A program made the position numbers and the translations under genes. Below the pieces are notes generated by a model that made no database searches, had not been told where the DNA came from, and saw nothing but the letters and a program-made list of their open reading frames with translations. From IMG/VR virus record IMGVR_UViG_3300026198_000007: a stretch of 20,000 bases of DNA, one strand, 5' to 3'. Within the stretch, counting starts at the first letter, position 1. The number at the start of each line of letters is the position of its first letter. Origin of the DNA: an uncultured virus (IMG/VR IMGVR_UViG_3300026198_000007). Taxonomy: Duplodnaviria > Heunggongvirae > Uroviricota > Caudoviricetes. This document shows positions 3,667-17,980 of the stretch, piece by piece.

Positions 3667-3672
3667 TTTATC

Positions 3673-4512: not shown

Positions 4513-4518
4513 AGTAAA

Positions 4519-4719: not shown

Positions 4720-5489
4720 TAGTTTTCATCTTCAACTCTCCTCTTCATTTCGTTGACCATGCCTATCTGCAATCTTACAGAAGTCAGATAAAATTTTACC
4801 TTGTCACCGTTTGGATCAGTTGCTGCCGATTCAAGCAGAAGCACGACGTTTGTTCTCAAGTTTCTGATCCAGTGTAAAACGTCTAGATCTGTTTCCTCTG
4901 TTTCCTTTTTGTATAGGAAACGCATCAGTTCATTCATATCGGCAATCAGCGATGGCGTGTTATCCTCGGGATAAAGCTGTTTCCATAGTTTGTTATATCC
5001 TTCTTCGATGGTTATATACTCATACGGGGTCTTATCGTCTTCGAAACACTCCTTTGGTAGACAATAAGCCATGAATCCGCGTTTTCCGTCTGCATCTGGT
5101 AAATAAACTGCTCCTGGCGCGCATGGTGAACAAAGTGGTCCGAGAGTAACATATGGAGATTCGGCAATGAATAGGTCATTGCCGATTAATTGTATTTTGT
5201 ATCCATCGTGTTCATATAGTCTGGAATCTTCGCTTTCGTCCCAGTTTTCGAACATTTCTTCTGCGATTGATTCTTTTAATTTCTCGATTTCGGTTTCTTT
5301 ATCCAATCCTCGTTCTTTTGCGAACTCTTTAATTGGTTCGAACAATTCGTCAATTTCAAGCTCGATTTCTTTTATTGCAAGGTTTTCCGAGTTATCATAA
5401 AATTCTTCGTATGCGAACCAGGGGTCTAGATCGTGTAATGGTATCACCCCGTATCTGATACCTGTTTTCGGATCTGTGTTTGGGATCAT
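4716..5489 (-). CDS. Virus-type hypothetical protein (TGIRYGVI, CSPCAPGA motifs)
   Basis: Long ORF; SD GGAGGT before ATG 5489; ATGA overlap with the upstream gene. Confidence 0.85.
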   Translation of the reverse strand: MIPNTDPKTGIRYGVIPLHDLDPWFAYEEFYDNSENLAIKEIELEIDELFEPIKEFAKERGLDKETEIEKLKESIAEEMFENWDESEDSRLYEHDGYKIQLIGNDLFIAESPYVTLGPLCSPCAPGAVYLPDADGKRGFMAYCLPKECFEDDKTPYEYITIEEGYNKLWKQLYPEDNTPSLIADMNELMRFLYKKETEETDLDVLHWIRNLRTNVVLLLESAATDPNGDKVKFYLTSVRLQIGMVNEMKRRVEDENY

Positions 5490-5986
5490 GTTACCTCCCA
5501 TTGCAATTCTTTGTCTGATAGCTTTGCATACTTTTCGAATGCTGTATCCAGTTCCAGCATGCTGAATCCGATGTTGGATAATCTTTTGCGGGTTTCGTTC
5601 AGTAGATCTCTGTGATACCAGCCTATGTCTGGATCATCACTCTCGATTCCCCACACTGATTCATATATTGAGGTGCTTAAGGGTTCTTTGTTTATCAGTA
5701 TTTCCAAGTCAATTTTTATGATGGCTCTCACGTAGTACCATTTATTGTCTAGCCAATCTTCGACGCGTTTTTTGTCTTCGTTTGCGTATCGGTATGCGTC
5801 TCGACGTTCTTTTCCCTTTAGATCGTGCCATTTTTGAATTGGTATTAACCAATGTTGACCAAGTTTTAATGCATTTGTTTCCCAGTGATCTGACAACTTT
5901 CCGTAGTCGTTTAACATGTAACAGTCATCATCAATTTCGTATTTTAAGAATATATCAACTATACTCAATTTTGCCTCCTTTTCCAT
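5486..5986 (-). CDS. Virus-type hypothetical protein (WYYV...SVWGIESD)
   Basis: SD GAGGTGA before ATG 5986. Confidence 0.8.
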   Translation of the reverse strand: MEKEAKLSIVDIFLKYEIDDDCYMLNDYGKLSDHWETNALKLGQHWLIPIQKWHDLKGKERRDAYRYANEDKKRVEDWLDNKWYYVRAIIKIDLEILINKEPLSTSIYESVWGIESDDPDIGWYHRDLLNETRKRLSNIGFSMLELDTAFEKYAKLSDKELQWEVT

Positions 5987-6035
5987 GGCCGTCACCTCAT
6001 TTGTCGTGTTGTTGTATCGCTTTTTCGATCACCAT

Positions 6036-6443
6036 TTACATTCTCTCCGTTTCCCATAACAAAGTCTCGTATGCTTCTTTTCCCAAGAAATTTTTCATGT
6101 TCAAAGACACAGCTTTCACATTGTGATATATTGTCTCAGCTCTTCTTAAATCAATATCATATCCATAATCGTTGGCCCAGTCTTCGAAACTATTCGAATT
6201 TTCGTATCCCGATGCATCCGATGCAATGCAGTCTAGAACTTCGGATACTGTTGGTCTCTTTCCTTTGTGACCAATCCCTTTTGAAAAGTATGTCACAAAC
6301 TCGTTTATTCCTTTTCCCGGCATGTGCAGCACAATTTCCCAATGATCTCCTTTGAAATCTGTCATATATGGGCTTTGATGTATTTTGTTGCATTCCTTCA
6401 TTTTTATTCCATGCATTTCAATGAACTCTTCAATCGTTGCCAT
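6036..6443 (-). CDS. Virus-type hypothetical protein (FEDWANDYGYD)
   Basis: SD AGGAGGT before ATG 6443. The longer ORF start would run through the tRNA-like element and the upstream gene. Confidence 0.8.
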   Translation of the reverse strand: MATIEEFIEMHGIKMKECNKIHQSPYMTDFKGDHWEIVLHMPGKGINEFVTYFSKGIGHKGKRPTVSEVLDCIASDASGYENSNSFEDWANDYGYDIDLRRAETIYHNVKAVSLNMKNFLGKEAYETLLWETERM

Positions 6444-6462
6444 ATGTATCTCTACCTCCTGA

Positions 6463-6504
6463 TTGCCGCTCCCGGAGTCGAACCGGGCTAATACCTCGGC
6501 GGCT
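6463..6504 (-). ncRNA. Mini tRNA-like element no. 2 (acceptor stem + T-arm), intercistronic
   Basis: Minus strand: AGCCGCC GAGGTATTAG CCCGG TTCGACT CCGGG AGCGGCA A. Canonical T-arm; 5 of 7 acceptor pairs; 10-nt linker. Confidence 0.7.
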
Positions 6505-6772
6505 ATTTCGTTTCTTCCACTAGTTCCCATATGTGAATCTCTTGTACTTCGTCGGATTCTTGCATGTCGAAGTGTTCCATTCTCAGTTCGATGATAACCG
6601 TACCGGCCAGCGTTGATTTGATTTCTGATATTATTGATCGATAGTCATCTTCCCATTCGTCTGTTCCCAGTTTCGATATGTGTCGGTCTAAGTCTCGTAT
6701 TGCGGTTTCGTTGTTTTTATTGGCAATGTAGACGCCGGTATCTTCTCCGTCTTTGTAAACTTTAAAGATCAT
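6503..6772 (-). CDS. Acidic hypothetical protein
   Basis: SD AAGGAGA before the ATG. Confidence 0.8.
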   Translation of the reverse strand: MIFKVYKDGEDTGVYIANKNNETAIRDLDRHISKLGTDEWEDDYRSIISEIKSTLAGTVIIELRMEHFDMQESDEVQEIHIWELVEETK

Positions 6773-6788
6773 TTCGATTCTCCTTCAT

Positions 6789-6845
6789 GAAAACCTCGGG
6801 TGCAGGGGCAGCGGATACTCGCGACTTCAGTCGTGGGTAGTTGAC
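6789..6845. mobile_element. 57-bp IS200/IS605-superfamily (IscB-type) palindromic remnant or mini-element
   Basis: Minus strand begins GTCAACTACCCACGACTGAAGTCG; 10-bp hairpin at 6816-6839; flanked by TTCAT (6784-6788); removal restores GAG GAA TGA. Confidence 0.75.
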
Positions 6846-7282
6846 TCCTCCATTGGTTCTTCGTTCTCAGTAAATGCTTCTTCTGCGCAGAATTCTGAAC
6901 AGAATTTTCCGTAATCAGGATCTCCGTATATCACGAAAAATTCTTTGTCATCTCTTAGTTTTCCACATCTGTCGCACTTTGGCAATGATGCATAATGTTC
7001 CATGATTTCTTTTTTCAATTCTTCTAGATCCTGTGGTTCACCTTCAACCATTTCAAAATGGCCAAACGCAATCCCTATTTCCTCATCAGGGTGATCGGCC
7101 TGCAATGCCTCTCTGACCTTGATCGCTGCGTCCAAGGCTTCTCTTGGGTCGTCGTATTCTCCTTCACCTGGATAATCCGTGGCGAGCATATCCGAACCGG
7201 CGTAATCGATTCCTGGATATGCTATTTCCACTATATATCTACCAGAATAGAACTGATGTTGGCAATTTACGAAGTATGGCAT
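6827..7282 (-). CDS. Acidic protein with C-terminal CxxC...FCSxxC (TRASH-like) zinc motif
   Basis: CDRCG...FCSEFCA; SD AGGTGA; the last 5 codons come from the IS remnant. Confidence 0.8.
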   Translation of the reverse strand: MPYFVNCQHQFYSGRYIVEIAYPGIDYAGSDMLATDYPGEGEYDDPREALDAAIKVREALQADHPDEEIGIAFGHFEMVEGEPQDLEELKKEIMEHYASLPKCDRCGKLRDDKEFFVIYGDPDYGKFCSEFCAEEAFTENEEPMEESTTHD

Positions 7283-7304
7283 TTTTTATCACCTGATTCT
7301 TATT

Positions 7305-7499
7305 TCAATCAATCCATACGCATACAAAGCCAGGTTCCTTAACACCATCTTGAATTTCTTCAGTCACTCTGGTTATTCGGCCAACTGTTAGACTTCCAGG
7401 TTCTCCTAGAATATCACTTAACAATGTGTTAACTTGTGCAATCAATTCTTCATCAGAGTCATCAATATTTCCTTCTACTATAATTGGTAGTTCGCCCAT
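7305..7499 (-). CDS. Small acidic hypothetical protein
   Basis: SD GAGGAGA. Confidence 0.7.
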   Translation of the reverse strand: MGELPIIVEGNIDDSDEELIAQVNTLLSDILGEPGSLTVGRITRVTEEIQDGVKEPGFVCVWID

Positions 7500-7510
7500 A
7501 TTTATCTCCT

Positions 7511-7693
7511 CTAATTCTTTGCTGCGATTAATCCTATTCCCAGGATTATTAATGATACTACAAGTATCAGGCCAGCGAATAGTACCTCTAGGCCATTTTC
7601 ACTTGCGAAAACACCAATCGCCCCAATGAGTGTACCAGTTGCACCAATAAGGGCAATAAGGAACCCTATAAACCTTATTAACATATTTGTCAT
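7511..7693 (-). CDS. Small two-TM membrane protein
   Basis: Two long hydrophobic segments; SD AGGAGA. Confidence 0.75.
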   Translation of the reverse strand: MTNMLIRFIGFLIALIGATGTLIGAIGVFASENGLEVLFAGLILVVSLIILGIGLIAAKN

Positions 7694-7694
7694 T

Positions 7695-7853
7695 TTATTC
7701 TCCTAAAATTCCTAGATAATCGGCAATCTTCTCCAGGTACGGCACGGTTCCTTTGCTTAATACGGCGGCAGTTCCTGGATTTTTGATATCCCGGTATATG
7801 ATTTTGGTTGTTGGCTGTGCGTTGGTCTCTTCGATTGTTTCAGTATCTTCCAT
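7695..7853 (-). CDS. 52-aa protein MEDTETIEETNAQPTTKIIYRDIKNPGTAAVLSKGTVPYLEKIADYLGILGE, apparently chimeric (not in ORF track)
   Basis: SD AAGGAGG; the C-terminus matches that of 9105..9302 at 12 of 14 aa. Confidence 0.7.
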   Translation of the reverse strand: MEDTETIEETNAQPTTKIIYRDIKNPGTAAVLSKGTVPYLEKIADYLGILGE

Positions 7854-7868
7854 ATCGTTGTTCCTCCT

Positions 7869-8132
7869 TTATGTTGTTGCATGGTTTTTTATCTTTTTCA
7901 CCAGTTCTATATTCAGCCTTTCAGCTTCGTCCATGTTTCCTATTCCCAGCAGACCCACTATCTCGCATAATTGGTCTACACATTCTGTCAGTTCTTCCAC
8001 CATATCCGCATCGTCTTTAAAGGTCACCAGTATTATGCTTGTCGAATATTGCAGCATTTTTGCATATCTCAATATCGCTTTCATCCGTTTATCCTCATCC
8101 ATCTCAGGCCACTTCCTCAAAGTCTTATTCAC
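7869..8132 (-). CDS. Hypothetical protein
   Basis: GTG-start ORF overlapping the upstream stop. Confidence 0.65.
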   Translation of the reverse strand: MNKTLRKWPEMDEDKRMKAILRYAKMLQYSTSIILVTFKDDADMVEELTECVDQLCEIVGLLGIGNMDEAERLNIELVKKIKNHATT

Positions 8133-8403
8133 TCACAATTGCTGCTTCAACAAACTTAGTCAAAACCGGCTCTGCCCAGCTTATAATATCCCATGTATCT
8201 GGCTCATATGTTATCTCTTCAACTGTTACAATCAGACCGTCAGTTAGGTTCAGTATCAGCGAAAGATATTCCGATGTTATTCTCAGTTCAGCAGATACAA
8301 CTTTATTGCGATTTACTGAGCAATAATCACTATCCAATATACTGATCATCTCATTTATGATCTGGTCAACCAGGACTTCATCAATCTTTACAATTTGTTT
8401 CAT
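8125..8403 (-). CDS. Acidic hypothetical protein (MKQIVKIDE...)
   Basis: SD GGAGGT before ATG 8403. Confidence 0.7.
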   Translation of the reverse strand: MKQIVKIDEVLVDQIINEMISILDSDYCSVNRNKVVSAELRITSEYLSLILNLTDGLIVTVEEITYEPDTWDIISWAEPVLTKFVEAAIVSE

Positions 8404-8593
8404 GATAACCTCCATATCTACGTGCTTTTCCAGAGCAAATCGGACCCATCCCATCTTTAACAGATTCGGGATGAGTCAGTTTCCTGCCACAACAAACACA
8501 AGTTGTTATGCCGTCGCCTTTAGGTTTGAAAGCCTTGCAGGCTGGAGTTATTTTGCCATTTTCAATCAAAATCCTTCCCATTCCAACCACCAT
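8381..8593 (-). CDS. DUF6011-like zinc-finger protein (start uncertain)
   Basis: CVCCGRKLTHPESVKDGMGPIC fits the CxxCGRxLTxxxSxxxGxGPxC signature. Confidence 0.75.
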   Translation of the reverse strand: MVVGMGRILIENGKITPACKAFKPKGDGITTCVCCGRKLTHPESVKDGMGPICSGKARRYGGYHETNCKD

Positions 8594-8614
8594 ATACCAG
8601 ACAATCTGACCATC

Positions 8615-8743
8615 TCAGGCCACCTCCTCGACCTTCTTCTCGTCAAACATTTCTTTTTCCCACGCCGTGGTTGCTTCTTCGATGTTCCCCGATCTCATGT
8701 TTTTGCGATAGATCGCGTCTATCGCAGGGTGTAGACCGAACAC
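8615..8743 (-). CDS. 42-aa small protein MFGLHPAIDAIYRKNMRSG...KVEEVA (not in ORF track)
   Basis: GTG immediately after the upstream TAA; its SD GGAGGTG lies in the upstream gene tail. Confidence 0.65.
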   Translation of the reverse strand: MFGLHPAIDAIYRKNMRSGNIEEATTAWEKEMFDEKKVEEVA

Positions 8744-8845
8744 TTAGGCCACCTCCTCCGCGCTGTCCTTGGATTGCTCTCTTGCTTCTCTTCGCTCAAT
8801 ACAGTCCTCCACAAATTGGTCTATAAGATCGCTCATGGCGGTCAT
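8744..8845 (-). CDS. 33-aa small protein MTAMSDLIDQFVEDCIERREAREQSKDSAEEVA (not in ORF track)
   Basis: ATG immediately after the upstream TAG; SD GGAGGTG. Confidence 0.65.
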   Translation of the reverse strand: MTAMSDLIDQFVEDCIERREAREQSKDSAEEVA

Positions 8846-9103
8846 CTAGGCCACCTCCTCTTCATGAATTTCCGAGTTGCCGCAATTGCATTTCACGATT
8901 TCGGCGTAATCGGCACCATAATCTCCACCTAGATCGGTATATCCTGTTTTTCGAAGATCGTCTGCTTTGCGGCCATATAATGCTAATTCGAATGTCCAGA
9001 TTATGTGGTAGATTGCGTCAGCCTTTCTTTCAAATGTTGCGACATGGTCCGGGATGCAGCCGTAGCTCCCGGACATTGCTATGAAGTGCTCTTTTGTTGA
9101 CAT
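8846..9103 (-). CDS. Virus-type hypothetical protein (GSYGCIPD)
   Basis: ORF packed 1 nt after the upstream stop; SD GGAGAG. Confidence 0.75.
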   Translation of the reverse strand: MSTKEHFIAMSGSYGCIPDHVATFERKADAIYHIIWTFELALYGRKADDLRKTGYTDLGGDYGADYAEIVKCNCGNSEIHEEEVA

Positions 9104-9104
9104 T

Positions 9105-9302
9105 TTAAATCTCTCCCAGGTAATCTACGATTTTGTCTAAATATGGCACGGTTCCCCAGAATCCGTAAACCTTGCCCTCATCAGTGGTGAAAAGGCCGCC
9201 ATATTCACCATCCAATGGGAGGCCTAGCTCGGTTAGAATTATGTTTACGTCTTGCGAATCTGTTATAAGCTGGGCTCTATTTGGGATGTCTGAAATTTTC
9301 AT
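9105..9302 (-). CDS. Small hypothetical protein
   Basis: SD GGAG; C-terminus GTVPYLDKIVDYLG shared with 7695..7853. Confidence 0.75.
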   Translation of the reverse strand: MKISDIPNRAQLITDSQDVNIILTELGLPLDGEYGGLFTTDEGKVYGFWGTVPYLDKIVDYLGEI

Positions 9303-9311
9303 GTGAATCTC

Positions 9312-9824
9312 CTACTCCAAACCGGCGAACTTCAATATTTCGAATATCTCTTTGTGGAGTTTTGGTGTCATCTTGATTTCGTGTTTGCCTTTTTCCAGAG
9401 CCGTTTCTGACAATTCGTGGACTGCAAACTGTAGTGCATAATAGGCAGTAGCAATGTCTTTGTCATTTCGCCAATAAAAATTCTTGACTTGTTTCCATTC
9501 GGTTTTATGATCAAATATTTCAAATTTCAGGCATATTCGATCGTTGGATGATTCATCATTTGTGCTCAGGTACATTCTCATACCAATGCTGAAATTTCGG
9601 TCCACTACTTGTCTGGACGGGCCGATATCGAAACAAAACTCTTCTCCACGTTGTTTGATTCCCCCGTTCATCCAATCAATTACTTGCCCCCACGACAAGA
9701 TTTTGTTGACTGGCCCAATATCTGCTTTCTTTCCGAATGCGTATATCAAAGGAAATGCGTGCTCCATTGAGCTGTATAAAAATTCGCATTTCATGAGTTT
9801 CATAGCCTTTTCACGAGAAATCAT
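9312..9824 (-). CDS. Hypothetical protein, 170 aa
   Basis: ATGA overlap with the upstream gene. Confidence 0.8.
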   Translation of the reverse strand: MISREKAMKLMKCEFLYSSMEHAFPLIYAFGKKADIGPVNKILSWGQVIDWMNGGIKQRGEEFCFDIGPSRQVVDRNFSIGMRMYLSTNDESSNDRICLKFEIFDHKTEWKQVKNFYWRNDKDIATAYYALQFAVHELSETALEKGKHEIKMTPKLHKEIFEILKFAGLE

Positions 9825-10042
9825 CGGCTATCAAGTCCTCGTAGATGATTTACAAGCTCATCGAATACCTTGGTTCCGGCCATGGTTTGAAGGACATTGG
9901 CTTCATAATCTTTGATAGGGGTGAAATGCCCGTCATTCATCAGAGCAAATTCCTGAGGGAGCCTGACCTTTTTTATGCCCTGCTTTGTCAGATACTTCTC
10001 AAATCGGTTAAATTTGTAAAGAGGGCCGGCAATCTGTTTCAT
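9821..10042 (-). CDS. Hypothetical protein (MKQIAGPLY...)
   Basis: SD GGAGG before ATG 10042; ATGA overlap. Confidence 0.7.
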   Translation of the reverse strand: MKQIAGPLYKFNRFEKYLTKQGIKKVRLPQEFALMNDGHFTPIKDYEANVLQTMAGTKVFDELVNHLRGLDSR

Positions 10043-10122
10043 AACTCGGCCTCCACGGAGATCCCGATCAGTTCGCCGGACTCTTCGTAATAGGTGATTC
10101 CGTCGCAAGTTGTTGTGGTCAT
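10039..10122 (-). CDS. 27-aa small protein MTTTTCDGITYYEESGELIGISVEAEL (not in ORF track)
   Basis: Starts right after the upstream TAA and ends overlapping the next ATG. Confidence 0.45.
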   Translation of the reverse strand: MTTTTCDGITYYEESGELIGISVEAEL

Positions 10123-10539
10123 TTAGGCCACAACCTTCGCGCTGGGGAATGCTTCAACTATGGCCTCATCATAGGGTCCGGCCCAGAAAGGATTGTTTCC
10201 TGGTAACGGGTTTTGAGGTGCGTTTACGTAGAATCTGAGCTTCTTGGCCTCTTTGAAGGCTCTGAGTTTGGTGAGAATGGCCTCATCAGGCTTGCCGCCT
10301 ACGGTCTGAACCGCAATCATTGCTTTGCCCTTGTGTTCGTAGCGGACGATCAGCAATTTGCTGCTTGTCTTTTCGGCGGTGGGTTTGGGGGTTCTCGCTT
10401 TTTTGGTCTTGGGCTGTGTCTGGATGGGGGCCTGTGTCGCGGTGTTCGCAAATACGAGCATTGAGGTTAAGATGGCCTCATCATCTATTTTTTCGACAGT
10501 TTCAACTACCTTTTTTCTAAGTATGCTTATTTTGCTCAT
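10123..10539 (-). CDS. Basic protein with Lys/Pro/Thr linker; first gene after the structured leader
   Basis: SD AAGGAGTGA; K-rich linker QPKTKKARTPKPTAEK. Confidence 0.85.
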   Translation of the reverse strand: MSKISILRKKVVETVEKIDDEAILTSMLVFANTATQAPIQTQPKTKKARTPKPTAEKTSSKLLIVRYEHKGKAMIAVQTVGGKPDEAILTKLRAFKEAKKLRFYVNAPQNPLPGNNPFWAGPYDEAIVEAFPSAKVVA

Positions 10540-10700
10540 TTGGTATCACTCCTTTATTACTTTCCTGGAGGAATCTGAGTCGATTGCCTCATCAGGGTAA
10601 TTAGGGGTCAGTGGACGATGCACCCAAAGGTTAGGAGGCCAATGGAAAAAGTGTCGCCCACTGTTGACGGGTTGTGAAGGGAGTTCAGCAATCCCGCCAA

Positions 10701-10742
10701 TAGCAGTGTCCGGAATCGAACCGGAATTGTGCCTGCACTGCT
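10701..10742 (-). ncRNA. Mini tRNA-like element no. 1 (acceptor stem + T-arm)
   Basis: Minus strand: AGCAGTG CAGGCACAAT TCCGG TTCGATT CCGGA CACTGCT A. Perfect 7-bp acceptor stem, 5-bp T-stem, 7-nt T-loop; no D or anticodon arm. Confidence 0.8.
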
Positions 10743-11560
10743 TCTTTGCCGGAGCCCTGAGTCTCCCCTAGACACAAGGCTCATCGTCGTTGTCTGTGCG
10801 TTGCCCATATCAGGCCCTTTCGCTGTCGGCTATTTGGGCATATGGGCTAGATCGGAAGTAAGGGCATTTTTGGTCTTTGGCAACTACCCTATGGTTCGAC
10901 CAGATTTTTGGTGAGATGGCGTCTCTTAATCTGGTTTACACTAGCCGCCGCATCCGGGCCAGTCAAATTCCCGGAATCGATCAGTTGAGCCGTATCAGAG
11001 TTTGGTCAGTCGGTTAGGCGAGAGGTTATCTTTTTCGTCGGCATTTGCTAGGGGATAGCAAACCGTGATCATTTTTCCCTCTCTCGGCTCGTCACTCTGG
11101 ACTGATCCATTGCTCCGGCTGACTCTGAAGGGCTGGCCTGATCTTTGAACTTCTGGCTTTTAGGTGGAGCCAATGCCGTTTATCAAGTCTTCAACCTGAT
11201 ATTAAGCCTAATCTACGGAATTGAGACCGATTTGCGATTAGGACGGCTAACCATTGATTAACGTGGATTGATTGCTTTTGGCTTTTCGGGACTTCTGAGA
11301 AAATCGGGAGTAGGTTTGCCATCAAATGCCTGCTCCGTATTCCCTGCCTGGAAATTGCTCTGAATCACCTCGATTGATGCCTATTTGAGTTCATTGAGCC
11401 TATACATTGTGATATTGATTTTGACTAACCCCAAACCGCCCAGCAATGAAGATCTCATTTCCCCAGAGTTTGGAGAGATCGCCGGTTTTGGCCTGCCTGC
11501 TCTATTTGGGATTTTGGTTTTGTGCTCCAGCGGTTGGTTATTCGCCTTCGCCATAACCCA
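10743..11560 (-). ncRNA. Candidate large (~800 nt) structured non-coding RNA
   Basis: No convincing ORF; more than 12 mutually compatible helices, including one pairing the two ends; promoter upstream and mini-tRNA downstream. Confidence 0.6.
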
Positions 11561-11573
11561 TCTTAGGTCTTGA

Positions 11574-11590
11574 GGATATAAGCTTTGCTG
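11574..11590 (-). promoter_or_regulatory. Archaeal BRE + TATA promoter for the leader and gene cassette
   Basis: Minus strand CAGCAAAGC TTATAT CC, about 20-25 nt upstream of the first hairpin. Confidence 0.65.
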
Positions 11591-11628
11591 AACAACTATG
11601 CTCTACTGTGATCGATATGGTGATATCT

Positions 11629-12455
11629 TGTACGTTGATGTACATATTTGTACATTGGAAAGGATGGTTGGGGTGGTCGATTTCCGCGATAATGTCGCTT
11701 GATATCGATTTGATGTGGCGGGATGGCGACGAAAGGCGGGAAAATCGGCAACTGGCGGCTGTATATATCATGTACGCACGCGTATATCTATATATAGGGG
11801 AGATATTGCCGCCTGTTATCGATTATATGGGATATATGCGGTCGATGATGGCTACTGATAGCGATATATGGGATATATGTGAGGTATGTGTGATATATTC
11901 GAAAATTAATAAAAATGAAAAAGATGAAACGAAAATTTTTAAAATTAAATTAATTCAATTTACTATTATAGGACTGATCCTGATATAAAGCGATAAGGGG
12001 AGGGGCCGAACCCCAGTGCACAGAAATGAACATTGGCGGCGAGAAGTCGGCAATGGTGCTTGAAGATATGCATTGGGACCCGGAGATGTGCATTGATGTA
12101 CGAATATGTACATTTTGGCGTTGGCAGTAATATAACCCTAGAAATGCCTCAACCCGCCTACGGAACTATTGACTCACCAATGTACATATCTATCCGTCTA
12201 GGGTTATATGAGCGCCTTGTAGTCCAGATCTGAGGATGGTTGAAGGTCCACATTCCGCCAGGCCCAGCCCAGCCCACATATCAAGCAGCATACCTATATC
12301 AATCTCATATGACTCCTATATCATCACTAGCGATCGAATATGTACATCACCGGGTTGGAATTATCAGGAACGGCCCGATTCAAGCACCAATGCGCAAATA
12401 TGTACATCAGGCCGCATATACCAGCATCCCCCAACCCGCGAGCGCGACAATGTAC
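11629..12455. repeat. Cluster of TGTAC(A) motifs, partly in 10-bp tandem phase, including a 23-bp inverted repeat
   Basis: TGTAC at 11629, 11639, 11649, 11771, 12097, 12107, 12181, 12341, 12401 and 12451; 11636-11658 is the inverse of 12387-12409 (21/23). Confidence 0.75.
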
Positions 12456-12821
12456 CTTTCCAGACATTAAACCCCCCATATTTCCACTAGTGTAAACCCC
12501 AAGACAATAATGCTCACATTAATACAATAACACACAGCAGCGACCGAACTGGTGCGCATTAGCGCACCCTTCCCCTCCCGTGGAGGGGATTGAGGGGAGG
12601 AACCAGAAAGCTCCTACGTCACTTTCCGGTTGGGAAAAAAGATTGTATCAGAATCACATGCACCAACATAACCAAACCACAACCCAACCCTAAACCAAAT
12701 AGCATAGCGCCATGCACCACAACAACCAGAACCCACAACCCACATAATACAATCTAAACCCATCAACACCACTACAAATAATATCTACATAGCCTCGATC
12801 CTATAATAGAAAATTGGATTA
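11951..12821. repeat. 23-bp inverted repeat pair adjoining AT-rich tracts
   Basis: The reverse complement of 11951-11973 TAATTCAATTTACTATTATAGGA matches 12799-12821 TCCTATAATAGAAAATTGGATTA at 21/23. Confidence 0.7.
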
Positions 12822-12883
12822 TTTTCGAAAAATTTCAAAAATTTTAGCAGATATCGATTTTAAAAAATAAATATCCGTTGACA

Positions 12884-13099
12884 TCATATCCACCGTAATC
12901 GATTTCTCACAAATCGCAACCAGTCGCGCACTTTGTTCATTATTCGACGTTCGTTGCCACCATTTCTATACTTCATCCTCAACTCCTCCCAAAACAAATC
13001 AGTCTCGGCAACCTTCTCCTTTCTCCAAGCCAGATACTCTTCCTCTGTCATATCATCAGGTCCAAACACAAGAACCCCATTAATTACCTCTGAAATCAC
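12884..13099 (-). CDS. Small hypothetical protein
   Basis: SD GGAGGT before GTG 13099, which overlaps the upstream stop (GTGA). Confidence 0.65.
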   Translation of the reverse strand: MISEVINGVLVFGPDDMTEEEYLAWRKEKVAETDLFWEELRMKYRNGGNERRIMNKVRDWLRFVRNRLRWI

Positions 13100-13545
13100 G
13101 ACGTGAACCTCCCATCCTTCCATGCCCCAATATACCTCAGATAATCCTCAAGCTCAAGTATGCGCAGGTTAGTCACCTTTGCCAACTTAATAATCACGTC
13201 CTGGTCATCCATTTCCGGCAATTCGCCCGTTGATGTCTCACAATAAATTGTCGGCCCGGCCAAATAAGGATACATCCTACAAATCAGAGGTCTACTCCGA
13301 TATATCCGACATCCATTTTGATAAAACTCACATGGAGCCACATTCCGCAACGTCAACCTCTCATCATCTTTCGGATGCCTCATAAAATGACGTTTAGCCG
13401 CCAGTCTCATCGAAATCCTAAACCTTCTTGCAATCCTCAAAGCATCCCTTGGATATATGTCAACAATTTTCGGTTCCTTGCAACACGTCCCACATCTCTT
13501 GCACTCGAAAAAGATCTGTCTAATAGCGCGCTCTTTCCAATTCAT
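13096..13545 (-). CDS. YkgJ/CxxCxxCC-family putative Fe-S or Zn cluster protein
   Basis: FECKRCGTCC...PCEFY...CRIY..RPLICRMYP; SD GGAGGT. Confidence 0.85.
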   Translation of the reverse strand: MNWKERAIRQIFFECKRCGTCCKEPKIVDIYPRDALRIARRFRISMRLAAKRHFMRHPKDDERLTLRNVAPCEFYQNGCRIYRSRPLICRMYPYLAGPTIYCETSTGELPEMDDQDVIIKLAKVTNLRILELEDYLRYIGAWKDGRFTS

Positions 13546-13706
13546 ACCCCAACCTCCTTTCCACAAAACGGGCAATACGTCAACTCATAATAAGCCATGT
13601 CTCGGCCAATCCACAACCTACCGTTGCGGCTTCTAACAACCAACGCATGAATCGCAGATTTCATAGTTTCACAGCATATGCACATGACCATGCCTGGCAC
13701 TTTCAT
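13542..13706 (-). CDS. 54-aa zinc-ribbon protein MKVPGMVMCICCETM...YCPFCGKEVGV (not in ORF track)
   Basis: ATGA overlaps at both ends; CC and CPFCG motifs. Confidence 0.7.
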   Translation of the reverse strand: MKVPGMVMCICCETMKSAIHALVVRSRNGRLWIGRDMAYYELTYCPFCGKEVGV

Positions 13707-14122
13707 AGTTTAAAAATCATCTCCTCGTCGTCATATTTAGGTTCCTTAATGGCAAAGAAGTCCTGCATGAACGGACTCACCATGGGCTCGGAAAATCCCT
13801 TGCGAACCCTGTCTCGACCGCAAACGACCATGTTTATGATCCAGGTTCCACTGCCCCGTACCCTGCGTTCTTGCCCGCCGACAAGATGAGTTTTAGGCCG
13901 CGTGCATACCTCAATCTTGCCCACAAGGTGCTCCATATAACTCGGCAATTCCCTATTCTCACTGTAGTCCTGTGCTAGTGAGGAGTTGCCGGGAATTTGT
14001 CCCCCATCCACAGTCTTTTGGTCAGTACTACTTTGCAAGTTCGTCATGCTCAACTTCAGCATCGGAAAATCAAATTGAGGAACCTTACCAGAAGGAAGGC
14101 CCATAGACCAGAAATTGTTCAT
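13703..14122 (-). CDS. Hypothetical protein
   Basis: TGATG overlap at 14122 with a GAGGG SD. Confidence 0.65.
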   Translation of the reverse strand: MNNFWSMGLPSGKVPQFDFPMLKLSMTNLQSSTDQKTVDGGQIPGNSSLAQDYSENRELPSYMEHLVGKIEVCTRPKTHLVGGQERRVRGSGTWIINMVVCGRDRVRKGFSEPMVSPFMQDFFAIKEPKYDDEEMIFKL

Positions 14123-14805
14123 CAAATCCCTCCATTCATAGCGCACCAGGCCATCATAAACGGTTGAAAATGACCAGGATGCCCTCTTATGTACATTGGC
14201 TCAACGTTTTCAAAGAGTTTTCCAGCAATGTCTTGCTCATGATCTCGGAGCCATGCGGCTGCCTGTTCAATTTCCTCGCATATATGATCGCATGCACAAG
14301 CATCGCACCTTTTTCTGAACTCTTCTTCAGCGAGATCAATGCCAATCAAAACATAGTCGGCCATGTCTGGATCTGAATAAATCTCGTCAAGCGAATTATT
14401 CGCAGCTTCGAACTCGTTATTGGCAAAGATATCAACTTTCGAGATCGTCGTGACCTCATATGTCAGTCGATAATGTTTAGCCAAAACTCCAAGAGCAACT
14501 TCGCATCGGATAGCCAACGCAAGGTTATCATTCAGGTACTTAAGGAACGCATCGACCAGTCGGCAATACTCTACAAAGGCCTCGGGCGGGCATGGCAACA
14601 AGAAAGGTACTCTGCAATACAGGGATCTCTCATGGCACCCCTCCCAGAAGAAATGGCTTATGTATCCGTCGTAATATAGCATGTACAACTGATCAACAAT
14701 CCCTCTCAAGTATCGAACTATCTCATCGGCGGTGCATACCCTCGGATCGAAATACAGTTCAGGGCTTCCGTTGGCCAGGATATCGGCAACTACTAGGTCA
14801 TTCAT
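14122..14805 (-). CDS. Acidic hypothetical protein with CxxCxCxxxC cluster (ORF extends to 14877)
   Basis: Long ORF; CDACACDHIC; ATG at 14805 minimises overlap with the upstream gene. Confidence 0.75.
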   Translation of the reverse strand: MNDLVVADILANGSPELYFDPRVCTADEIVRYLRGIVDQLYMLYYDGYISHFFWEGCHERSLYCRVPFLLPCPPEAFVEYCRLVDAFLKYLNDNLALAIRCEVALGVLAKHYRLTYEVTTISKVDIFANNEFEAANNSLDEIYSDPDMADYVLIGIDLAEEEFRKRCDACACDHICEEIEQAAAWLRDHEQDIAGKLFENVEPMYIRGHPGHFQPFMMAWCAMNGGI

Positions 14806-15109
14806 GTTTCTCAGCTTCCTTTCTGCAAGCGCATTCATGCATTTCAGCAATGTTTGATGGGTTTCTTTCGCACGCACATTTCCTCATGTTATCAGATATC
14901 CTTGTTATCGATGATTGCGGATCTGTCCTCGGGTCTTCGTACTTGTGAGAATACTTGACATCTGTGACATTGACACTACTAACTGGTGGAAAGTTTAACA
15001 TGTTTTCTACATGTTTTTTTGCTTCTTCTTCACTATCTGCAACTACCTCGTACCCAACAATCTGATCGATTATTGTGACGGTATAATCTACCTTGTATAT
15101 GTTGCTCAT
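14798..15109 (-). CDS. Hypothetical protein with VVADSEEEAK motif and two CAC motifs
   Basis: ORF in the packed array. Confidence 0.7.
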   Translation of the reverse strand: MSNIYKVDYTVTIIDQIVGYEVVADSEEEAKKHVENMLNFPPVSSVNVTDVKYSHKYEDPRTDPQSSITRISDNMRKCACERNPSNIAEMHECACRKEAEKHE

Positions 15110-15182
15110 TGCGTTTTACCTTCATTGAGTCCGTGTTTTCGAATACTTGACGCCTTGCAGCTTACCAGGTATCTCATTTCAG

Positions 15183-15347
15183 TCACCTCATAAAGTCCCA
15201 AATTATTGCCACCAGGTACAGTCCCACCACGCTTATGATAATTGGAACTGCGTAGAAGATATCGCCCGTGGTGACAATACCCAATATCGATATCCCAATG
15301 AATGCCAAAAATAGGATGGCAAATAAGGTCGTTACAAACTTAATCAT
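15183..15347 (-). CDS. Small two-TM membrane protein
   Basis: SD GGAGGTGA before ATG 15347; two hydrophobic segments. Confidence 0.7.
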   Translation of the reverse strand: MIKFVTTLFAILFLAFIGISILGIVTTGDIFYAVPIIISVVGLYLVAIIWDFMR

Positions 15348-15352
15348 CTCGG

Positions 15353-15541
15353 TCACCTCCAAAGTAAATACCAATCAGCAATCAGGGTGACTCCGAAGAC
15401 CAGCCATAGCAGACGAAATGCCATTTGGCTCACTCTCGGACTTAATCTATCTTCGAATGAATACAGCGTCGCAAACCCCATAGCACATAGCTCGATCAAT
15501 ATCACACTTATCAGTATTACGATATCTGGCTGGCAAGTCAT
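15353..15541 (-). CDS. Small two-TM membrane protein
   Basis: Two hydrophobic segments. Confidence 0.65.
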   Translation of the reverse strand: MTCQPDIVILISVILIELCAMGFATLYSFEDRLSPRVSQMAFRLLWLVFGVTLIADWYLLWR

Positions 15542-15599
15542 TTATCCGCCATCCGTTGGTCACGATATTCTTTAAGTAGTCCCCACATCTCACCTTGGT

Positions 15600-15881
15600 T
15601 CATCTCCAATCGACCTCAGGATGCTCCATAACAAGCATGCGGCGGGCATCTTCGTAGAAATCTGGCATCATTGTATCGTCGGTCTCATAATCTGCCAGAT
15701 CCCGTAGACGTTGTGCTCGTTCACATTTTACGATCTTTTTGAGGGCAGCGACCTGGGCCATCAGATCAGAGATAACTTTCTGTGAGTCTTTGCCTTTGTG
15801 CAGTTCGAATATCTCGTTTTGCAGTAGGTCTATCTGAGTTTCCAACCCTGCGATCCTGGTGGTTTGCTCTTCAGTGTTCAT
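15600..15881 (-). CDS. Coiled-coil hypothetical protein
   Basis: Heptad pattern IAGLETQIDLLQNEIFEL; SD GAGGG. Confidence 0.75.
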   Translation of the reverse strand: MNTEEQTTRIAGLETQIDLLQNEIFELHKGKDSQKVISDLMAQVAALKKIVKCERAQRLRDLADYETDDTMMPDFYEDARRMLVMEHPEVDWR

Positions 15882-15911
15882 TGTTGATCCCTCAGCAATT
15901 CCTCAAATTTC

Positions 15912-16178
15912 TCAAGTTCGATCATTTTGAATACCACCATAGGAATTCTTGAACTCTTCAATCTCTTCTGGAGTTAGGAACTCATGCCATTTGACAGGTG
16001 TTATTCTGACAAGATTGCCGTCTCTTTCAGATTTGATCCAGTTGTCACTTTCCAAGCGACAAACCGATTTGAATACCTCAACTATGGACCACCCCATCTC
16101 GTTTGCCAGTTCACGGATACTTGATCCAGGTTTTTCGTTTATCTTCTTGTAGAGCCTGTAATCTATATCTGCTGACAT
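15912..16178 (-). CDS. Winged helix-turn-helix DNA-binding protein
   Basis: INEKPGSSIRELANEMGWS...VCRLESDNWIKS; SD GGAGGAG. Confidence 0.85.
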   Translation of the reverse strand: MSADIDYRLYKKINEKPGSSIRELANEMGWSIVEVFKSVCRLESDNWIKSERDGNLVRITPVKWHEFLTPEEIEEFKNSYGGIQNDRT

Positions 16179-16180
16179 GT

Positions 16181-16474
16181 TTAATCTCCTCCATTTTTTA
16201 TCCGGTCTAACTCTGCGATTATTTGAGCACGTTCTGTCGGGTCGTCAGTGTGATCGAGTTCTGTGTAAAGCTTTGCCATTTTGACAGCAGGGTGACGACT
16301 TGGCTTTCGTAACGACGGTAATGGTGGTACGCCAAGCTTATTGATTTTTACGACCTTGATCACGTTGTCTTTTTTCAGGGCTTCCTTGATTGCGTCGTCC
16401 ACCGTTTCGGCAATGATGATGCTTTTCTCGATGGTGATGGTTTTGACTTCGTATTGGACTAGGTAGCTGTTCAT
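16181..16474 (-). CDS. Hypothetical protein (MNSYLVQY...)
   Basis: SD GGAGGA before ATG 16474. Confidence 0.7.
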   Translation of the reverse strand: MNSYLVQYEVKTITIEKSIIIAETVDDAIKEALKKDNVIKVVKINKLGVPPLPSLRKPSRHPAVKMAKLYTELDHTDDPTERAQIIAELDRIKNGGD

Positions 16475-16475
16475 C

Positions 16476-16847
16476 TCATCCTCCGTGACCATATACGCAT
16501 CCATCGCCAGAAAAATCAATTGTCATGATCTCCGGTGGATAGCGACTTGGCATAGATCTCCATTTTTTCAGGAGGCTACTGATATGGGACATTAGTTTTC
16601 GAAGGACGTCTTCGTTCAATACCATCAATTCAGTGTGTTCTCGAATGTCTATGTCGACAAAGCTGCTTCGAATACATAGTACGTTGCAAGGGATGCTTTC
16701 ATCCATGCAAATATGGTCACCTTTGAAATATTCTGGGCATGTTTTTAAGATTTCTTCCGTTGTCGGAAAACCAGAAATCCGGGAAACCATATACTTCTTT
16801 TTTCCCTGGTTATCTGATATTATTTCTATTACGATTTTTGGGGCCAT
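16476..16847 (-). CDS. Hypothetical protein
   Basis: SD GGTGA before the ATG. Confidence 0.75.
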   Translation of the reverse strand: MAPKIVIEIISDNQGKKKYMVSRISGFPTTEEILKTCPEYFKGDHICMDESIPCNVLCIRSSFVDIDIREHTELMVLNEDVLRKLMSHISSLLKKWRSMPSRYPPEIMTIDFSGDGCVYGHGG

Positions 16848-16853
16848 GTTTTT

Positions 16854-17126
16854 TCACCATTTTTTAGATGTTTTGTCTAATGCTTCAATGCGTTTGATGT
16901 GTTCCTTTATACTTGAAATGGTCTCGGTGGCTTTCCGTAAGTCTGCCTCTTCCTTGTCCAGCAACCACTGCTTTGCTTCCTCAAATGTGTCGAATATAGA
17001 TCTGTCATCGGAAATCTTTTTATGTTTTCGTCCATTGCTATCCGTAACATAGTGATCTGTTTCTGATATGATGTCAATGATTCTAATATCACGAAATGCA
17101 CGCCATGCGATGTATTTGTATTTCAT
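16854..17126 (-). CDS. Virus-type hypothetical protein (FDTFEEAK + coiled coil)
   Basis: ATGA overlap with the NrdG-like gene; SD AGGAG. Confidence 0.8.
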   Translation of the reverse strand: MKYKYIAWRAFRDIRIIDIISETDHYVTDSNGRKHKKISDDRSIFDTFEEAKQWLLDKEEADLRKATETISSIKEHIKRIEALDKTSKKW

Positions 17127-17898: not shown

Positions 17899-17919
17899 AG
17901 AAGATGGTAAGTGGGACAC

Positions 17920-17958: not shown

Positions 17959-17980
17959 GGAGGGACATAGGGAAGACTTT

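What the first reader, a model, noticed from the sequence alone, without database searches (positions are those of the whole stretch)
10743..11590. Candidate novel ~800-nt multi-domain ncRNA with its own promoter and a mini-tRNA-defined 3' end
Seen: an ORF-poor kilobase in an otherwise packed genome, behind a BRE/TATA (11574-11590, -). Compatible helices (+ coordinates): 11524-11531/10748-10755 (closes the whole domain next to the mini-tRNA), 11121-11133/10754-10763 (2-nt overlap with the former), 11101-11107/10979-10985, 11085-11090/10987-10992, 11078-11083/11020-11025, 11044-11050/11056-11062, 10899-10906/10928-10935, 10803-10810/10840-10847, a three-way junction (11175-11179/11243-11247, 11182-11188/11194-11200, 11207-11213/11236-11242), 11307-11314/11329-11336, 11431-11438/11483-11491, 11451-11456/11475-11480 and 11536-11541/11553-11558. 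The motif CAAATAG recurs three times. Most G-U pairs favour the minus strand; one favours plus. Known: phages carry large ncRNAs such as GOLLD and ROOL, often beside tRNAs. Inference: a large structured RNA of an archaeal virus, transcribed first and released by RNase P, or a cis-acting antitermination leader for the >10 kb operon. The basic protein 10123-10539 is a candidate partner. I recognise no known family.
Basis: partly seen in the sequence, partly recalled or inferred. Interest (0 to 1): 0.85.

Follow-up and report, generated by a model that had tools for sequence, protein, structure and literature searches.

The report
Large structured RNA of a virus
A virus found in anaerobic digesters, probably one that infects methane-producing archaea, carries a gene for an abundant, intricately folded RNA of about 800 bases that matches no described RNA family.

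Summary
The finding holds. Window 10745-11551 (minus strand) is a gene for a discrete, multi-domain non-coding RNA of about 0.8 kb.

Evidence:
- There is no conserved reading frame: 23 of 25 indels are not multiples of three.
- Rfam gives no match.
- The consensus fold of 12 related sequences has 221 pairs, and 38 of them keep pairing through changes on both sides. Shuffled controls give 19.7 and slid controls 1-9.
- Three covariance models built without a ~50%-identical relative (L021) still find it, in the same order. There, 10 helices I checked keep their place with different sequence.
- A conserved archaeal-type BRE/TATA promoter precedes the RNA.
- Metatranscriptome contigs from three studies cover just this stretch. 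In two of them its depth is about 25 times that of the contig over the next gene.

Six do not, including both 'closing' helices.

The mini-tRNA (10701-10742) is real but occurs in one lineage only; two other lineages have an A/T-rich stretch there. It is therefore an optional 3'-end device, and RNase P cleavage is not shown.

Most likely this is a stable trans-acting viral RNA, possibly working with the always-adjacent basic 138-aa protein. The function is unknown. GOLLD and ROOL are the closest analogues but are not relatives.

The parts
11628..11658 (.). Palindromic TGTACA-type operator repeats just upstream of the RNA promoter. Further copies lie at 12096-12113, 12178-12190, 12330-12347 and 12390-12407.
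   Evidence: the repeat finder family D1 with 5 copies, and inverted repeats I1-I6. The same CCAATGTACA...TGTACATCA motif stands before the promoter in L036 and L021.
11574..11595 (-). Archaeal-type promoter: the conserved box TTGTTCAG, a BRE-like AAAG and the TATA box CTTATAT(C).
   Evidence: Columns 1-25 of A3 are nearly invariant in 12 of 12 sequences and kept in L021. No sigma-70-like site was found in 10450-11750 (0 found, 1.6 expected). The TATA-to-start distance is my inference from recalled knowledge of archaeal promoters.
11537..11551 (-). 5' end of the RNA. 11551 is predicted from the TATA box. 11537 is where the run X17 contig ends and runs on into adapter letters.
   Evidence: tables 7 and 8: X17 record 13 covers 10606-11537, with the loose end AGATCGGAAGAG... 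directly behind 11537. I recognise these letters as an Illumina adapter from memory. Contigs cannot prove an RNA end.
11427..11513 (-). Domain I: a long hairpin with an inner three-way branch. Present in the window-type sequences and L036, absent from L021.
   Evidence: helices 2-6: outer helix 11504-13/11427-36 has 5 double changes; 11471-74/11462-65 has 3; 11475-80/11451-56 has 1. Absence from L021.
11162..11371 (-). Domain II: closing helices, a long bulged hairpin (11297-11354) and a three-way junction (11175-11247).
   Evidence: helices 10-20 (double changes in helices 12, 13, 18 and 20). Model R2 finds L021 at E = 1.5e-4. In L021 the hairpin stem and all three junction helices are kept with other letters.
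10979..11143 (-). Domain III: a four-step stacked stem that encloses the invariant core (11083-11117) and two variable hairpins.
   Evidence: helices 22-28. A 35-nt run is invariant in the first five sequences, and 33 nt of it align at 97% to L021. Model R3 finds L021 at E = 5.2e-7. Three steps of the stem are kept in L021 with different sequence.
10879..10978 (-). Domain IV: a hairpin with the conserved loop AUUUGACU(A/G)G, and a branched stem with the conserved GAGAC-N-CCAUCUCACCAA.
   Evidence: helices 29-33 (9 double changes). Model R1 finds L021 at E = 2.7e-7. Helix 10928-35/10899-906 is a perfect 12-bp helix of different sequence in L021.
10803..10847 (-). Domain V hairpin.
   Evidence: helices 34-36: 2 double changes, 100% of cells paired.
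10752..10782 (-). 3'-terminal hairpin, preceded by the conserved ACGACG. It is the last element shared by all three lineages.
   Evidence: helix 39: 100% paired, with 3 one-sided G-U changes. It is in the minimum-energy fold. Equivalent hairpins after ACGACG are read from the sequences of L036 and L021.
10701..10742 (-). Mini-tRNA: acceptor stem AGCAGTG/CACTGCT, a variable 10-nt linker, T arm TCCGG-TTCGATT-CCGGA and discriminator A. It has no D arm and no anticodon arm.
   Evidence: The sequence itself and its fold. The stems are invariant in the 10 of 12 A3 sequences that carry it; L018 ends before it and L036 lacks it. The linker varies. It is not called by ARAGORN or by any Rfam tRNA model, and it is absent from L036 and L021.
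10607..10700 (-). Two hairpins between the mini-tRNA and the next gene: a trailer of the RNA or a leader of the mRNA.
   Evidence: RNAalifold on A1 gives one double change and several one-sided changes. The X17 contig of depth 508 runs on to 10606, three bases past the second hairpin.
10123..10539 (-). Gene for a basic 138-aa protein of no known family. It is the first gene after the RNA in every lineage and a candidate partner.
   Evidence: no Pfam family; 45 unnamed clusters; pI 9.87. The AlphaFold model has pLDDT 74.6. Its C-terminal domain looks weakly like eIF1/SUI1.

Best explanation
Window ~11551 to ~10745 (minus strand) is a gene for a discrete, stable, highly structured non-coding RNA of about 0.8 kb. 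It belongs to a 60-76 kb virus whose proteins resemble those of tailed viruses, found in anaerobic digesters, whose host is probably a methanogenic archaeon.

Shown:
- The stretch does not code for protein.
- It folds into at least six domains whose helices are kept by compensatory changes across three lineages.
- It sits behind a conserved BRE/TATA promoter, which lies beside palindromic operator repeats and an iteron plus A/T-rich region that looks like a replication origin.
- Each genome carries one copy.
- It is present in RNA libraries of three studies, as contigs much deeper than those of the next gene.

Inferred:
- The RNA acts in trans as a long-lived scaffold or decoy rather than as a leader. 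Its most likely partner is the basic 138-aa protein encoded directly downstream in every lineage.
- Its 3' end is set just after the conserved terminal hairpin (about 10745-10752) by interchangeable devices.
- In the window's lineage that device is a tRNA-like minihelix, cut by the host's tRNA-processing enzymes (RNase P at 10743/10742, tRNase Z after 10701). This would also separate the RNA from the downstream mRNA.
- In the L036 and L021 lineages the device is an A/T-rich stretch, acting as an oligo-T terminator and/or as a promoter for the downstream gene.
For: Not coding:
- No ORF of 80 aa or more.
- 23 of 25 distinct gap runs among 11 sequences are not multiples of three.
- Stop-free stretches in relatives lie in differing frames and strands.

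Structure:
- The RNAalifold consensus on 12 sequences has 221 pairs with 98.2% of cells paired.
- 38 pairs change on both sides, against 19.7 +/- 2.5 in 500 shuffles (0 of 500 reach 38) and 1-9 in six slid controls.
- Three covariance models built without L021 find L021 in the same order: E = 1.5e-4, 5.2e-7 and 2.7e-7 in 40.6 kb.
- 10 helices in L021 keep their position and nesting with different letters.

Strand:
- The promoter, the flanking genes and the T loop of the mini-tRNA all read on the minus strand.
- Folding z-scores are lower on the minus strand for the whole RNA (-2.17 against -0.19) and for all five parts tested.
- L021 has G.U pairs in 3 of the 3 junction helices.

Expression:
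- X17: contig 10606-11537 at depth 508, against 20.1 for the gene contig 8964-10545. Both match the window without a difference.
- X19: contig 10729-11389 at depth 416.7, against 15.5 for 8729-10546.
- X20: three contigs cover 10728-11517 at depth 7-10, against 2-5 for the gene contigs.
- Separate contigs in three studies hint at separate RNA species.

Copy number and linkage:
- One copy in 4 of 4 virus records searched.
- The RNA-to-protein gene order is kept in all loci that reach that far.

Interchangeable 3' devices.
Against: - Contig depths are one mean figure per contig, and the runs were picked because they hold this stretch. The 25-fold ratio is therefore a hint, not a measurement.
- In the fourth run (X15, a diverged strain) a single contig of depth 12.5 spans 9282-11371 with no excess over the RNA.
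- Contigs give neither the strand nor true ends. The RNA contigs of X19 and X20 stop at 10729 and 10728, inside the mini-tRNA linker and not at the predicted RNase P site (10743/10742). The X17 contig runs on to 10606.
- RNAalifold energies do not separate the strands, and several one-sided changes give C.A on the minus strand.
- No partner, target or activity has been tested.
- The comparative set is small: 12 sequences at 79-99% identity plus one distant relative. Many double changes are shared by descent.
Confidence: 0.55

Rival explanations
1. It is a cis-acting structured leader. The 0.8-1.0 kb RNA is the 5' part of the transcript of the long minus-strand operon (10539 down to about 844). 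It controls elongation, termination or mRNA stability of that operon, and has no role once detached.
For: - It has the same orientation as, and lies directly upstream of, a run of about 25 minus-strand genes.
- In the window's lineage I see no convincing TATA box between the mini-tRNA and the ATG at 10539 (my reading). The operon may therefore depend on the RNA's promoter.
- In X15 one contig runs from the RNA into the genes (9282-11371).
Against: - In X17, X19 and X20 the RNA and the gene lie on separate contigs of very different depth.
- L036 and L021 have an A/T-rich, TATA-like or oligo-T stretch between the RNA and the gene, which suggests separate transcription units.
- A tRNA-like processing site between the RNA and the gene argues for physical separation.
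- 800 nt in six conserved domains is far more than any described leader.
Confidence: 0.2
2. It is a replication-linked RNA. The transcript starts beside the origin-like region (iterons plus an A/T-rich stretch at 11790-11990). It serves in origin activation or priming, or as a copy-number regulator.
For: - The promoter lies about 40-400 bp from five TATATGGGATATATG-like iterons, an A/T-rich block and the palindromic repeats.
- This control region is the most conserved part of the locus: 86-98% invariant columns against 54-92% in the RNA.
Against: - Transcription runs away from the origin-like region.
- The genome encodes its own primase-polymerase/helicase, so an RNA primer is not needed.
- A high steady-state level and an elaborate conserved fold are not expected of a primer.
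Confidence: 0.1
3. It is not an RNA gene. It is conserved non-coding DNA (protein-binding or recombination sites, with the mini-tRNA as an integration-site remnant) or a missed protein-coding gene.
For: - Whole-region folding energy is only weakly better than shuffles.
- tRNA fragments are common at the integration sites of mobile elements (established knowledge).
Against: - Compensatory changes in 38 pairs are not expected of protein-binding DNA.
- The mini-tRNA has both acceptor strands, so it is not a 3' tRNA fragment.
- Its 22-mer occurs in no other species-representative genome: the only hit was a copy of this virus region.
- The indel pattern and frames exclude coding.
- The stretch is present in RNA libraries.
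Confidence: 0.03

Closest known systems
[quoted passage not shown]
   Same: - It is about 800 nt or more, multi-domain, and encoded by viruses of prokaryotes.
[quoted passage not shown]
- tRNAs are often beside it or linked to it, its function is unknown, and its expression is linked to the virus.
These features come from passages read in bioRxiv 10.1101/2024.12.08.627333. Here, likewise, the 5' domain I is optional and a tRNA-like element is joined to the 3' end.
   Different: - No sequence or structure match to any Rfam model, even at E up to 10.
- The domain architecture is different.
- The host is probably an archaeon, not a bacterium.
- The tRNA-like part is a minihelix, not a full tRNA.
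- Self-assembly into a cage is untested.
ROOL RNA (rumen-originating, ornate, large)
   Same: A large structured phage or prophage RNA near tRNA islands, with no known protein partner and no known function (passages in the same preprint).
   Different: No Rfam match. The fold is unrelated. Whether this RNA has pseudoknots or multimerises was not tested here.
MALAT1 / MEN-beta with mascRNA (eukaryotic long non-coding RNAs whose 3' end is made by RNase P at a tRNA-like structure)
   Same: A long stable non-coding RNA followed directly by a tRNA-like fold that could recruit RNase P and tRNase Z. The principle is recalled, and is also named in the listing of PMC4824109 (abstract only).
   Different: - This is a prokaryotic virus.
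- The element lacks D and anticodon arms.
- I did not search for an A-rich tract or triple-helix element before the cleavage site; the RNA ends ...GGCAAAGA.
- Cleavage is not shown, and the RNA-library contigs end 14-15 nt further on.
- The element is absent from two of the three lineages.
phi29 pRNA and other abundant virus-encoded structural RNAs
   Same: A virus-encoded non-coding RNA made from a strong promoter that acts in trans together with viral proteins (recalled).
   Different: pRNA is about 170 nt and belongs to a packaging motor. There is no evidence here for any link to packaging.
Candidate structured RNAs catalogued from IMG/VR (Fremin et al. 2023, PMC10690425)
   Same: The same data source, and the same kind of evidence (covariation in intergenic regions of viral contigs).
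   Different: Those candidates average 67 nt (passage read). I did not see their supplementary tables, so parts of this RNA may be listed there as short motifs. I found no description of an 800-nt RNA.

Membership tests
GOLLD / ROOL (Rfam families; names recalled) | Match to the family's covariance model | tested here: not met
   cmscan of the whole window at gathering thresholds gave 0 matches. For 10400-13000 at E up to 10 it gave only three chance-level matches (two microRNA families and a frameshift element), all far below their gathering scores.
GOLLD / ROOL (Rfam families; names recalled) | A large (over 500 nt), multi-domain conserved fold encoded by a virus of prokaryotes, near tRNAs | tested here: met
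   About 800 nt, six domains, 221 consensus pairs. It lies in virus records, with a tRNA-like minihelix at the 3' end in one lineage.
GOLLD / ROOL (Rfam families; names recalled) | Homo-oligomeric RNA-only cage | not testable with these tools
   This needs in vitro transcription and cryo-EM or light scattering.
tRNA | Cloverleaf with D, anticodon and T arms | tested here: not met
   ARAGORN genes and no Rfam tRNA model matches at E up to 10. Only an acceptor stem and a T arm are present, joined by a 10-nt linker.
RNase P-defined 3' end (MALAT1-mascRNA type) | A tRNA-like fold directly after the mature 3' end | tested here: met
   The minihelix 10701-10742 follows the terminal hairpin by 9 nt. 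The fold is in the minimum-energy structure, and the stems are invariant in the 10 of 12 aligned sequences that carry it.
RNase P-defined 3' end (MALAT1-mascRNA type) | Cleavage at the 5' side of the tRNA-like fold, giving the RNA's 3' end | tested here: inconclusive
   Only contigs could be laid. They end at 10729 (X19), 10728 (X20) and 10606 (X17), not at 10743. Contigs cannot show ends, and the linker varies between strains, which alone can break a contig.
RNase P-defined 3' end (MALAT1-mascRNA type) | The element is a constant part of the RNA gene | tested here: not met
   It is absent from L036 and from L021/L027, which have A/T-rich sequence at that place.
Integration-site (attP) tRNA fragment | An exact copy of the 3' part of a host tRNA gene | tested here: not met
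   The 22-mer GGTTCGATTCCGGACACTGCTA occurs in only 1 stretch of the 185,579 species-representative genomes, and that stretch is a copy of this virus region. The element also carries its own 5' acceptor strand. The host may not be among the representatives.
eIF1/SUI1 fold (for the neighbouring 138-aa protein) | Structural match of the alpha/beta domain well above background | tested here: inconclusive
   Best Foldseek E = 0.013 (eIF1 chains of 43S complexes). Best VIA-align Z = 5.5 (rmsd 3.7 over 71 residues, eIF1), followed by eIF2D at 5.2 and 5.0, YciH at 4.8 and aIF1 at 4.5. All are below the Z of about 8 that the tool names as meaningful. There is no Pfam match.

The most novel reading that the evidence does not exclude
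This is the first 'ornate' large RNA class from viruses of archaea. It would be a functional counterpart of GOLLD and ROOL that builds a higher-order RNA or RNA-protein assembly during infection. In one lineage its 3' end is made by a tRNA-mimic in the manner of MALAT1/mascRNA, a mechanism so far known from eukaryotic nuclei and some animal viruses.
Probability: 0.2. Interest if true: 0.9.

Novelty: new variant of a known kind. Interest (0 to 1): 0.75.

Why it matters
- Very few large structured RNAs without a known function exist (GOLLD, ROOL, OLE and a handful more). Each one solved so far has shown unexpected architecture.
- As far as my searches reach, none has been described from a virus of archaea, and almost nothing is known about non-coding RNAs of methanogen viruses.
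- This one comes with unusually good starting material:
  - a defined promoter;
  - a secondary structure supported by compensatory changes in three lineages;
  - evidence of presence in RNA libraries of working anaerobic digesters;
  - a conserved neighbouring protein;
  - a natural experiment in which the 3'-end device differs between lineages (tRNA-like minihelix against A/T-rich stretch).
- It is therefore directly testable by in vitro transcription, cryo-EM, RNase P assays and pull-downs. It may also bear on how viruses control methanogens in biogas reactors.

Tried and rejected
Searches that added nothing:
- blastn of 10540-12880 and tblastn of the 900-aa primase-helicase against 50,697 phage records: no match.
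- The profile of the 138-aa protein against IMG/VR and further DNA patterns gave only the same 4-5 records. IMG/VR holds 5 relatives besides the window's own record.
- Earlier notes of this scan: none, by place or by sequence.

Tests that did not discriminate:
- RNAalifold energies of the two strands are alike (minus -371.9, plus -384.7 with ribosum scoring). The strand rests on other evidence.
- MAFFT alone cannot align L021 (50-53% identity). I used covariance models and scripted checks of individual helices instead.

Readings rejected:
- The CAAATAG motif is at chance level.
- The 126-aa ORF on the plus strand (11608-11988), inside the very conserved control region, is not a gene. It has a stop in L019, several stops and shifts in L036, and no three-base periodicity of variable sites (10/13/12).

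Parts without cover in the RNA libraries:
- X17, X19 and X20 have no contig over 11539-13674. X17 has none over 10546-10605, and X19 none over 10547-10728.
- The stops of RNA contigs at 10728/10729 (two studies) and of gene contigs at 10545/10546 (two studies) are weak hints at most. The first may simply reflect strain differences in the variable linker.

Not run:
- Complex prediction, because it takes proteins only.
- A search for pseudoknots and tertiary contacts.
Full report
**Where the window lies.** The window is the minus strand of bases 32817-52816 of a 60,309-bp IMG/VR virus record, classed linear and estimated 81% complete. Minus-strand genes fill 844-10539 and 12884-19912. Between them lie 2.3 kb without a credible gene. 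Most neighbouring proteins have no Pfam family. The rest of the record encodes:
- a primase-polymerase/helicase;
- an XPD-like helicase;
- a nuclease;
- beta-helix and Ig-like proteins;
- a 3141-aa PEGA-domain protein.

Language-model look-alikes of the primase come mostly from tailed viruses. Those of the radical-SAM activase come from Methanobacteriota (a lead only). No sigma-70-like promoter is found around the RNA start. The host is therefore probably a methanogenic archaeon, but this is inferred.

**The observation.** The ORF-poor stretch, the BRE/TATA-like motif and the mini-tRNA are all there. ARAGORN finds no tRNA. Rfam finds nothing at gathering thresholds in the 20 kb, and only three chance-level matches at E up to 10 in 10400-13000.

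Folding energy alone is weak evidence. The z-score is -1.28 on the minus strand and -0.06 on the plus strand for 10743-11590. It is -2.17 against -0.19 for 11540-10745. All five parts tested score lower on the minus strand; the best is domain III, at -3.73.

**Relatives.**
- Protein and DNA scans of IMG/VR gave five related records.
- One metagenome scan with a 20-mer gave ten loci.
- One genome scan gave a 2.4-kb contig binned into a MAG labelled Alphaproteobacteria. This contig is in fact the same virus region.
- After removing duplicates I used 12 sequences that are 79-99% identical over the RNA, with L036 at 75-81% to the rest, plus one distant relative (L021 = L027) at about 50%.

All share the same layout. 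Palindromic TGTACA repeats come first, then the box TTGTTCAG and a TATA box, then the structured stretch, then the gene for a basic protein of 132-138 aa.

**It is not coding.**
- 23 of 25 distinct gap runs are not multiples of three.
- Stop-free stretches of 80-128 codons in some relatives lie in differing frames and strands and are not shared.
- The longest stop-free stretch in the window's RNA region is 59 codons.

**Structure.** With the first five sequences RNAalifold already gave 26 pairs with compensatory double changes. On the 12-sequence alignment A3 the consensus has:
- 221 pairs in 42 helices;
- 98.2% of cells forming standard pairs;
- 38 pairs with a change on both sides, against 19.7 +/- 2.5 in 500 shuffles (0 of 500 reach 38) and against 1-9 when the partners are slid by one to three columns.

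The shuffles ignore shared descent, and the structure was derived from these same sequences, so the distant relative is the stronger test. Three covariance models were built from the 12 sequences without L021, covering 11160-11262, 10976-11146 and 10876-10978. Each finds L021 once, on the expected strand and in the same order, at E = 1.5e-4, 5.2e-7 and 2.7e-7.

A scripted check shows that L021 keeps the following helices with different letters:
- the hairpin stem of domain II (9 bp);
- all three helices of the three-way junction;
- three steps of the domain III stem;
- both main helices of domain IV, one of which is a perfect 12-bp helix in place of the window's 8 bp;
- an invariant small hairpin.

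Conserved unpaired motifs link the lineages: GCUUAAU, AAACGG, the 33-nt core, AUUUGACU(A/G)G and GAGAC-N-CCAUCUCACCAA. L021 lacks domain I entirely.

Nine of 15 stand and six do not (details under the observation check). The failures include:
- both long-range helices meant to close the whole domain next to the mini-tRNA;
- two helices inside domain III, where a four-step stacked stem (11115-11143 with 10979-11013) explains the data better and is kept in L021.

I found no supported helix that closes the whole RNA. It reads as a string of domains.

**Strand.** RNAalifold energies do not tell the strands apart. One-sided changes give both G.U and C.A on the minus strand. The minus strand is supported by:
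- the promoter;
- the direction of all neighbouring genes;
- the T loop of the mini-tRNA;
- the lower z-scores;
- G.U pairs in L021's junction helices.

**Expression.** Twenty of 24 listed public runs hold the stretch, and six of those are on record as RNA. I laid contigs of four RNA runs from four studies on 7000-15000.
- X17: a 956-nt contig of depth 508 covers 10606-11537 and runs on into adapter letters right after 11537. The contig over the next genes (8964-10545) has depth 20.1. Both match the window without a difference.
- X19: 10729-11389 at depth 416.7, against 8729-10546 at 15.5.
- X20: three contigs cover 10728-11517 at depth 7-10, against 2-5 for gene pieces.
- X15 (a diverged strain): one contig of depth 12.5 spans 9282-11371 with no excess. 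The upstream region is covered too, so this run does not support a separate abundant RNA and may contain DNA.

These are assembled contigs with one mean depth each, from runs chosen because they hold this stretch. They show presence in RNA libraries and hint at a separate, abundant species. They do not show strand, level or ends.

**The 3' end.** The terminal hairpin (10752-10782), preceded by ACGACG, is the last element common to all lineages.
- In the window's lineage the mini-tRNA follows after 9 nt. Its stems are invariant and its linker varies.
- L036 has TTGAAATTATATTTTTCC at this place, and L021 has CTATTTAATTATAATTTCCC.

These are different devices at the same position, which fits a discrete RNA end there. 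The mini-tRNA may work as a processing site that also frees the downstream mRNA. The A/T-rich boxes may work as a terminator and/or a promoter for the downstream gene. This is inference.

The contig ends (10728/10729 and 10606) do not coincide with the predicted RNase P site. The mini-tRNA is not a copied host tRNA end as far as the species-representative genomes show.

**Neighbourhood.**
- Region 11600-12000 is more conserved than the RNA.
- It holds five iteron-like repeats, an A/T-rich block and TGTACA palindromes that recur up to 12410.
- It is not coding.
- It looks like an origin and operator region.
- Each of the four virus records searched has exactly one copy of the RNA. Three of them are rated complete, and two of those have terminal repeats.

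**The neighbouring protein.**
- It is basic, with pI 9.87.
- It has 45 unnamed clusters among 5.8 billion proteins and no Pfam family.
- The model (pLDDT 74.6) has an N-terminal helical hairpin, a disordered basic linker and a C-terminal alpha/beta domain.
- The best structural matches of that domain are eIF1/SUI1-type RNA-binding domains. The scores are within the background range: Foldseek E = 0.013, VIA Z = 5.5.
- It remains a candidate partner only.

**Comparison with known systems.** The nearest known systems are the large ornate phage RNAs GOLLD and ROOL. The shared features are size, a virus origin, a variable 5' part with a conserved 3' part, and a link to tRNAs (passages read). There is no homology. 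The possible tRNA-mimic 3' processing resembles MALAT1/mascRNA (recalled; listing).

For most papers I saw listings and abstracts only; I read passages of PMC10690425 and of the GOLLD/ROOL preprint. They turned up no description of such an RNA in a virus of archaea. The supplementary tables of PMC10690425 were not seen and may list short pieces of it.

**Verdict.** This is a genuine, expressed, structurally conserved RNA gene of a new family. I put about 0.9 on that core claim, and about 0.55 on the fuller reading as a stable trans-acting RNA with interchangeable 3'-end devices.

Noticed in passing
window 11600-12450: A control region that is more conserved than the RNA itself (86-98% invariant columns over 11600-12000). 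It holds five TATATGGGATATATG-like iterons (11793-11899), an A/T-rich block (11900-11990) and at least five ATGTACAT-type palindromes. It looks like a replication origin plus operator sites. The 126-aa ORF on its plus strand is not conserved.
   Followed up: partly
window 11898-12635: In RNA run X15 a 738-nt contig of depth 65.8 covers 11898-12245 and 12318-12635, against 12-17 for its neighbours. Strong hairpins lie at 12540-12640. This may be a second non-coding transcript or a terminator region. It was seen in one run only.
   Followed up: no
window 10123-10539 (-): The 138-aa protein carries the motif DEAI/DEAV three times, each at the start of a helix. This is what produces the recurring TGATGAGGCC words in the DNA. 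A fourth, non-coding copy (CTGATGAGGCAAT) lies at about 10585-10597, upstream of the gene.
   Followed up: partly
L017 (genome contigs record, 2375 bp): A contig binned into a MAG labelled Alphaproteobacteria holds this virus's control region, RNA gene and the start of the protein gene, at 89% identity. It is most likely a binning error.
   Followed up: partly
L003, L019, L022 against the window and L004 (alignments A1, A3): Mosaic relatives. L003 is identical to the window type from the promoter to about 11240 and to the L004 type from there on. L019 and L022 switch elsewhere. Recombination thus seems to exchange parts of the RNA gene at or near domain borders.
   Followed up: no
window 10976-10984; L021 1605-1608: The junction between domains III and IV holds a conserved palindrome: AUCGAU in the main group and UCGA in L021. 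Palindromic unpaired words are what pairs two copies in GOLLD and OLE. Here this is only a thought.
   Followed up: no
G000:C1:3768-13193 (+), outside the window: A single ORF of 3141 aa with a C-terminal PEGA domain. It is an unusually large protein for a 60-kb virus.
   Followed up: no
window 10545-10562: The contigs over the first gene end at 10545 (X17), 10546 (X19) and 10562 (X20). The first two are only 6-7 nt before the ATG and inside or behind the GGAGTG ribosome-binding motif. The mRNA may be nearly leaderless, or this may be an assembly effect.
   Followed up: no
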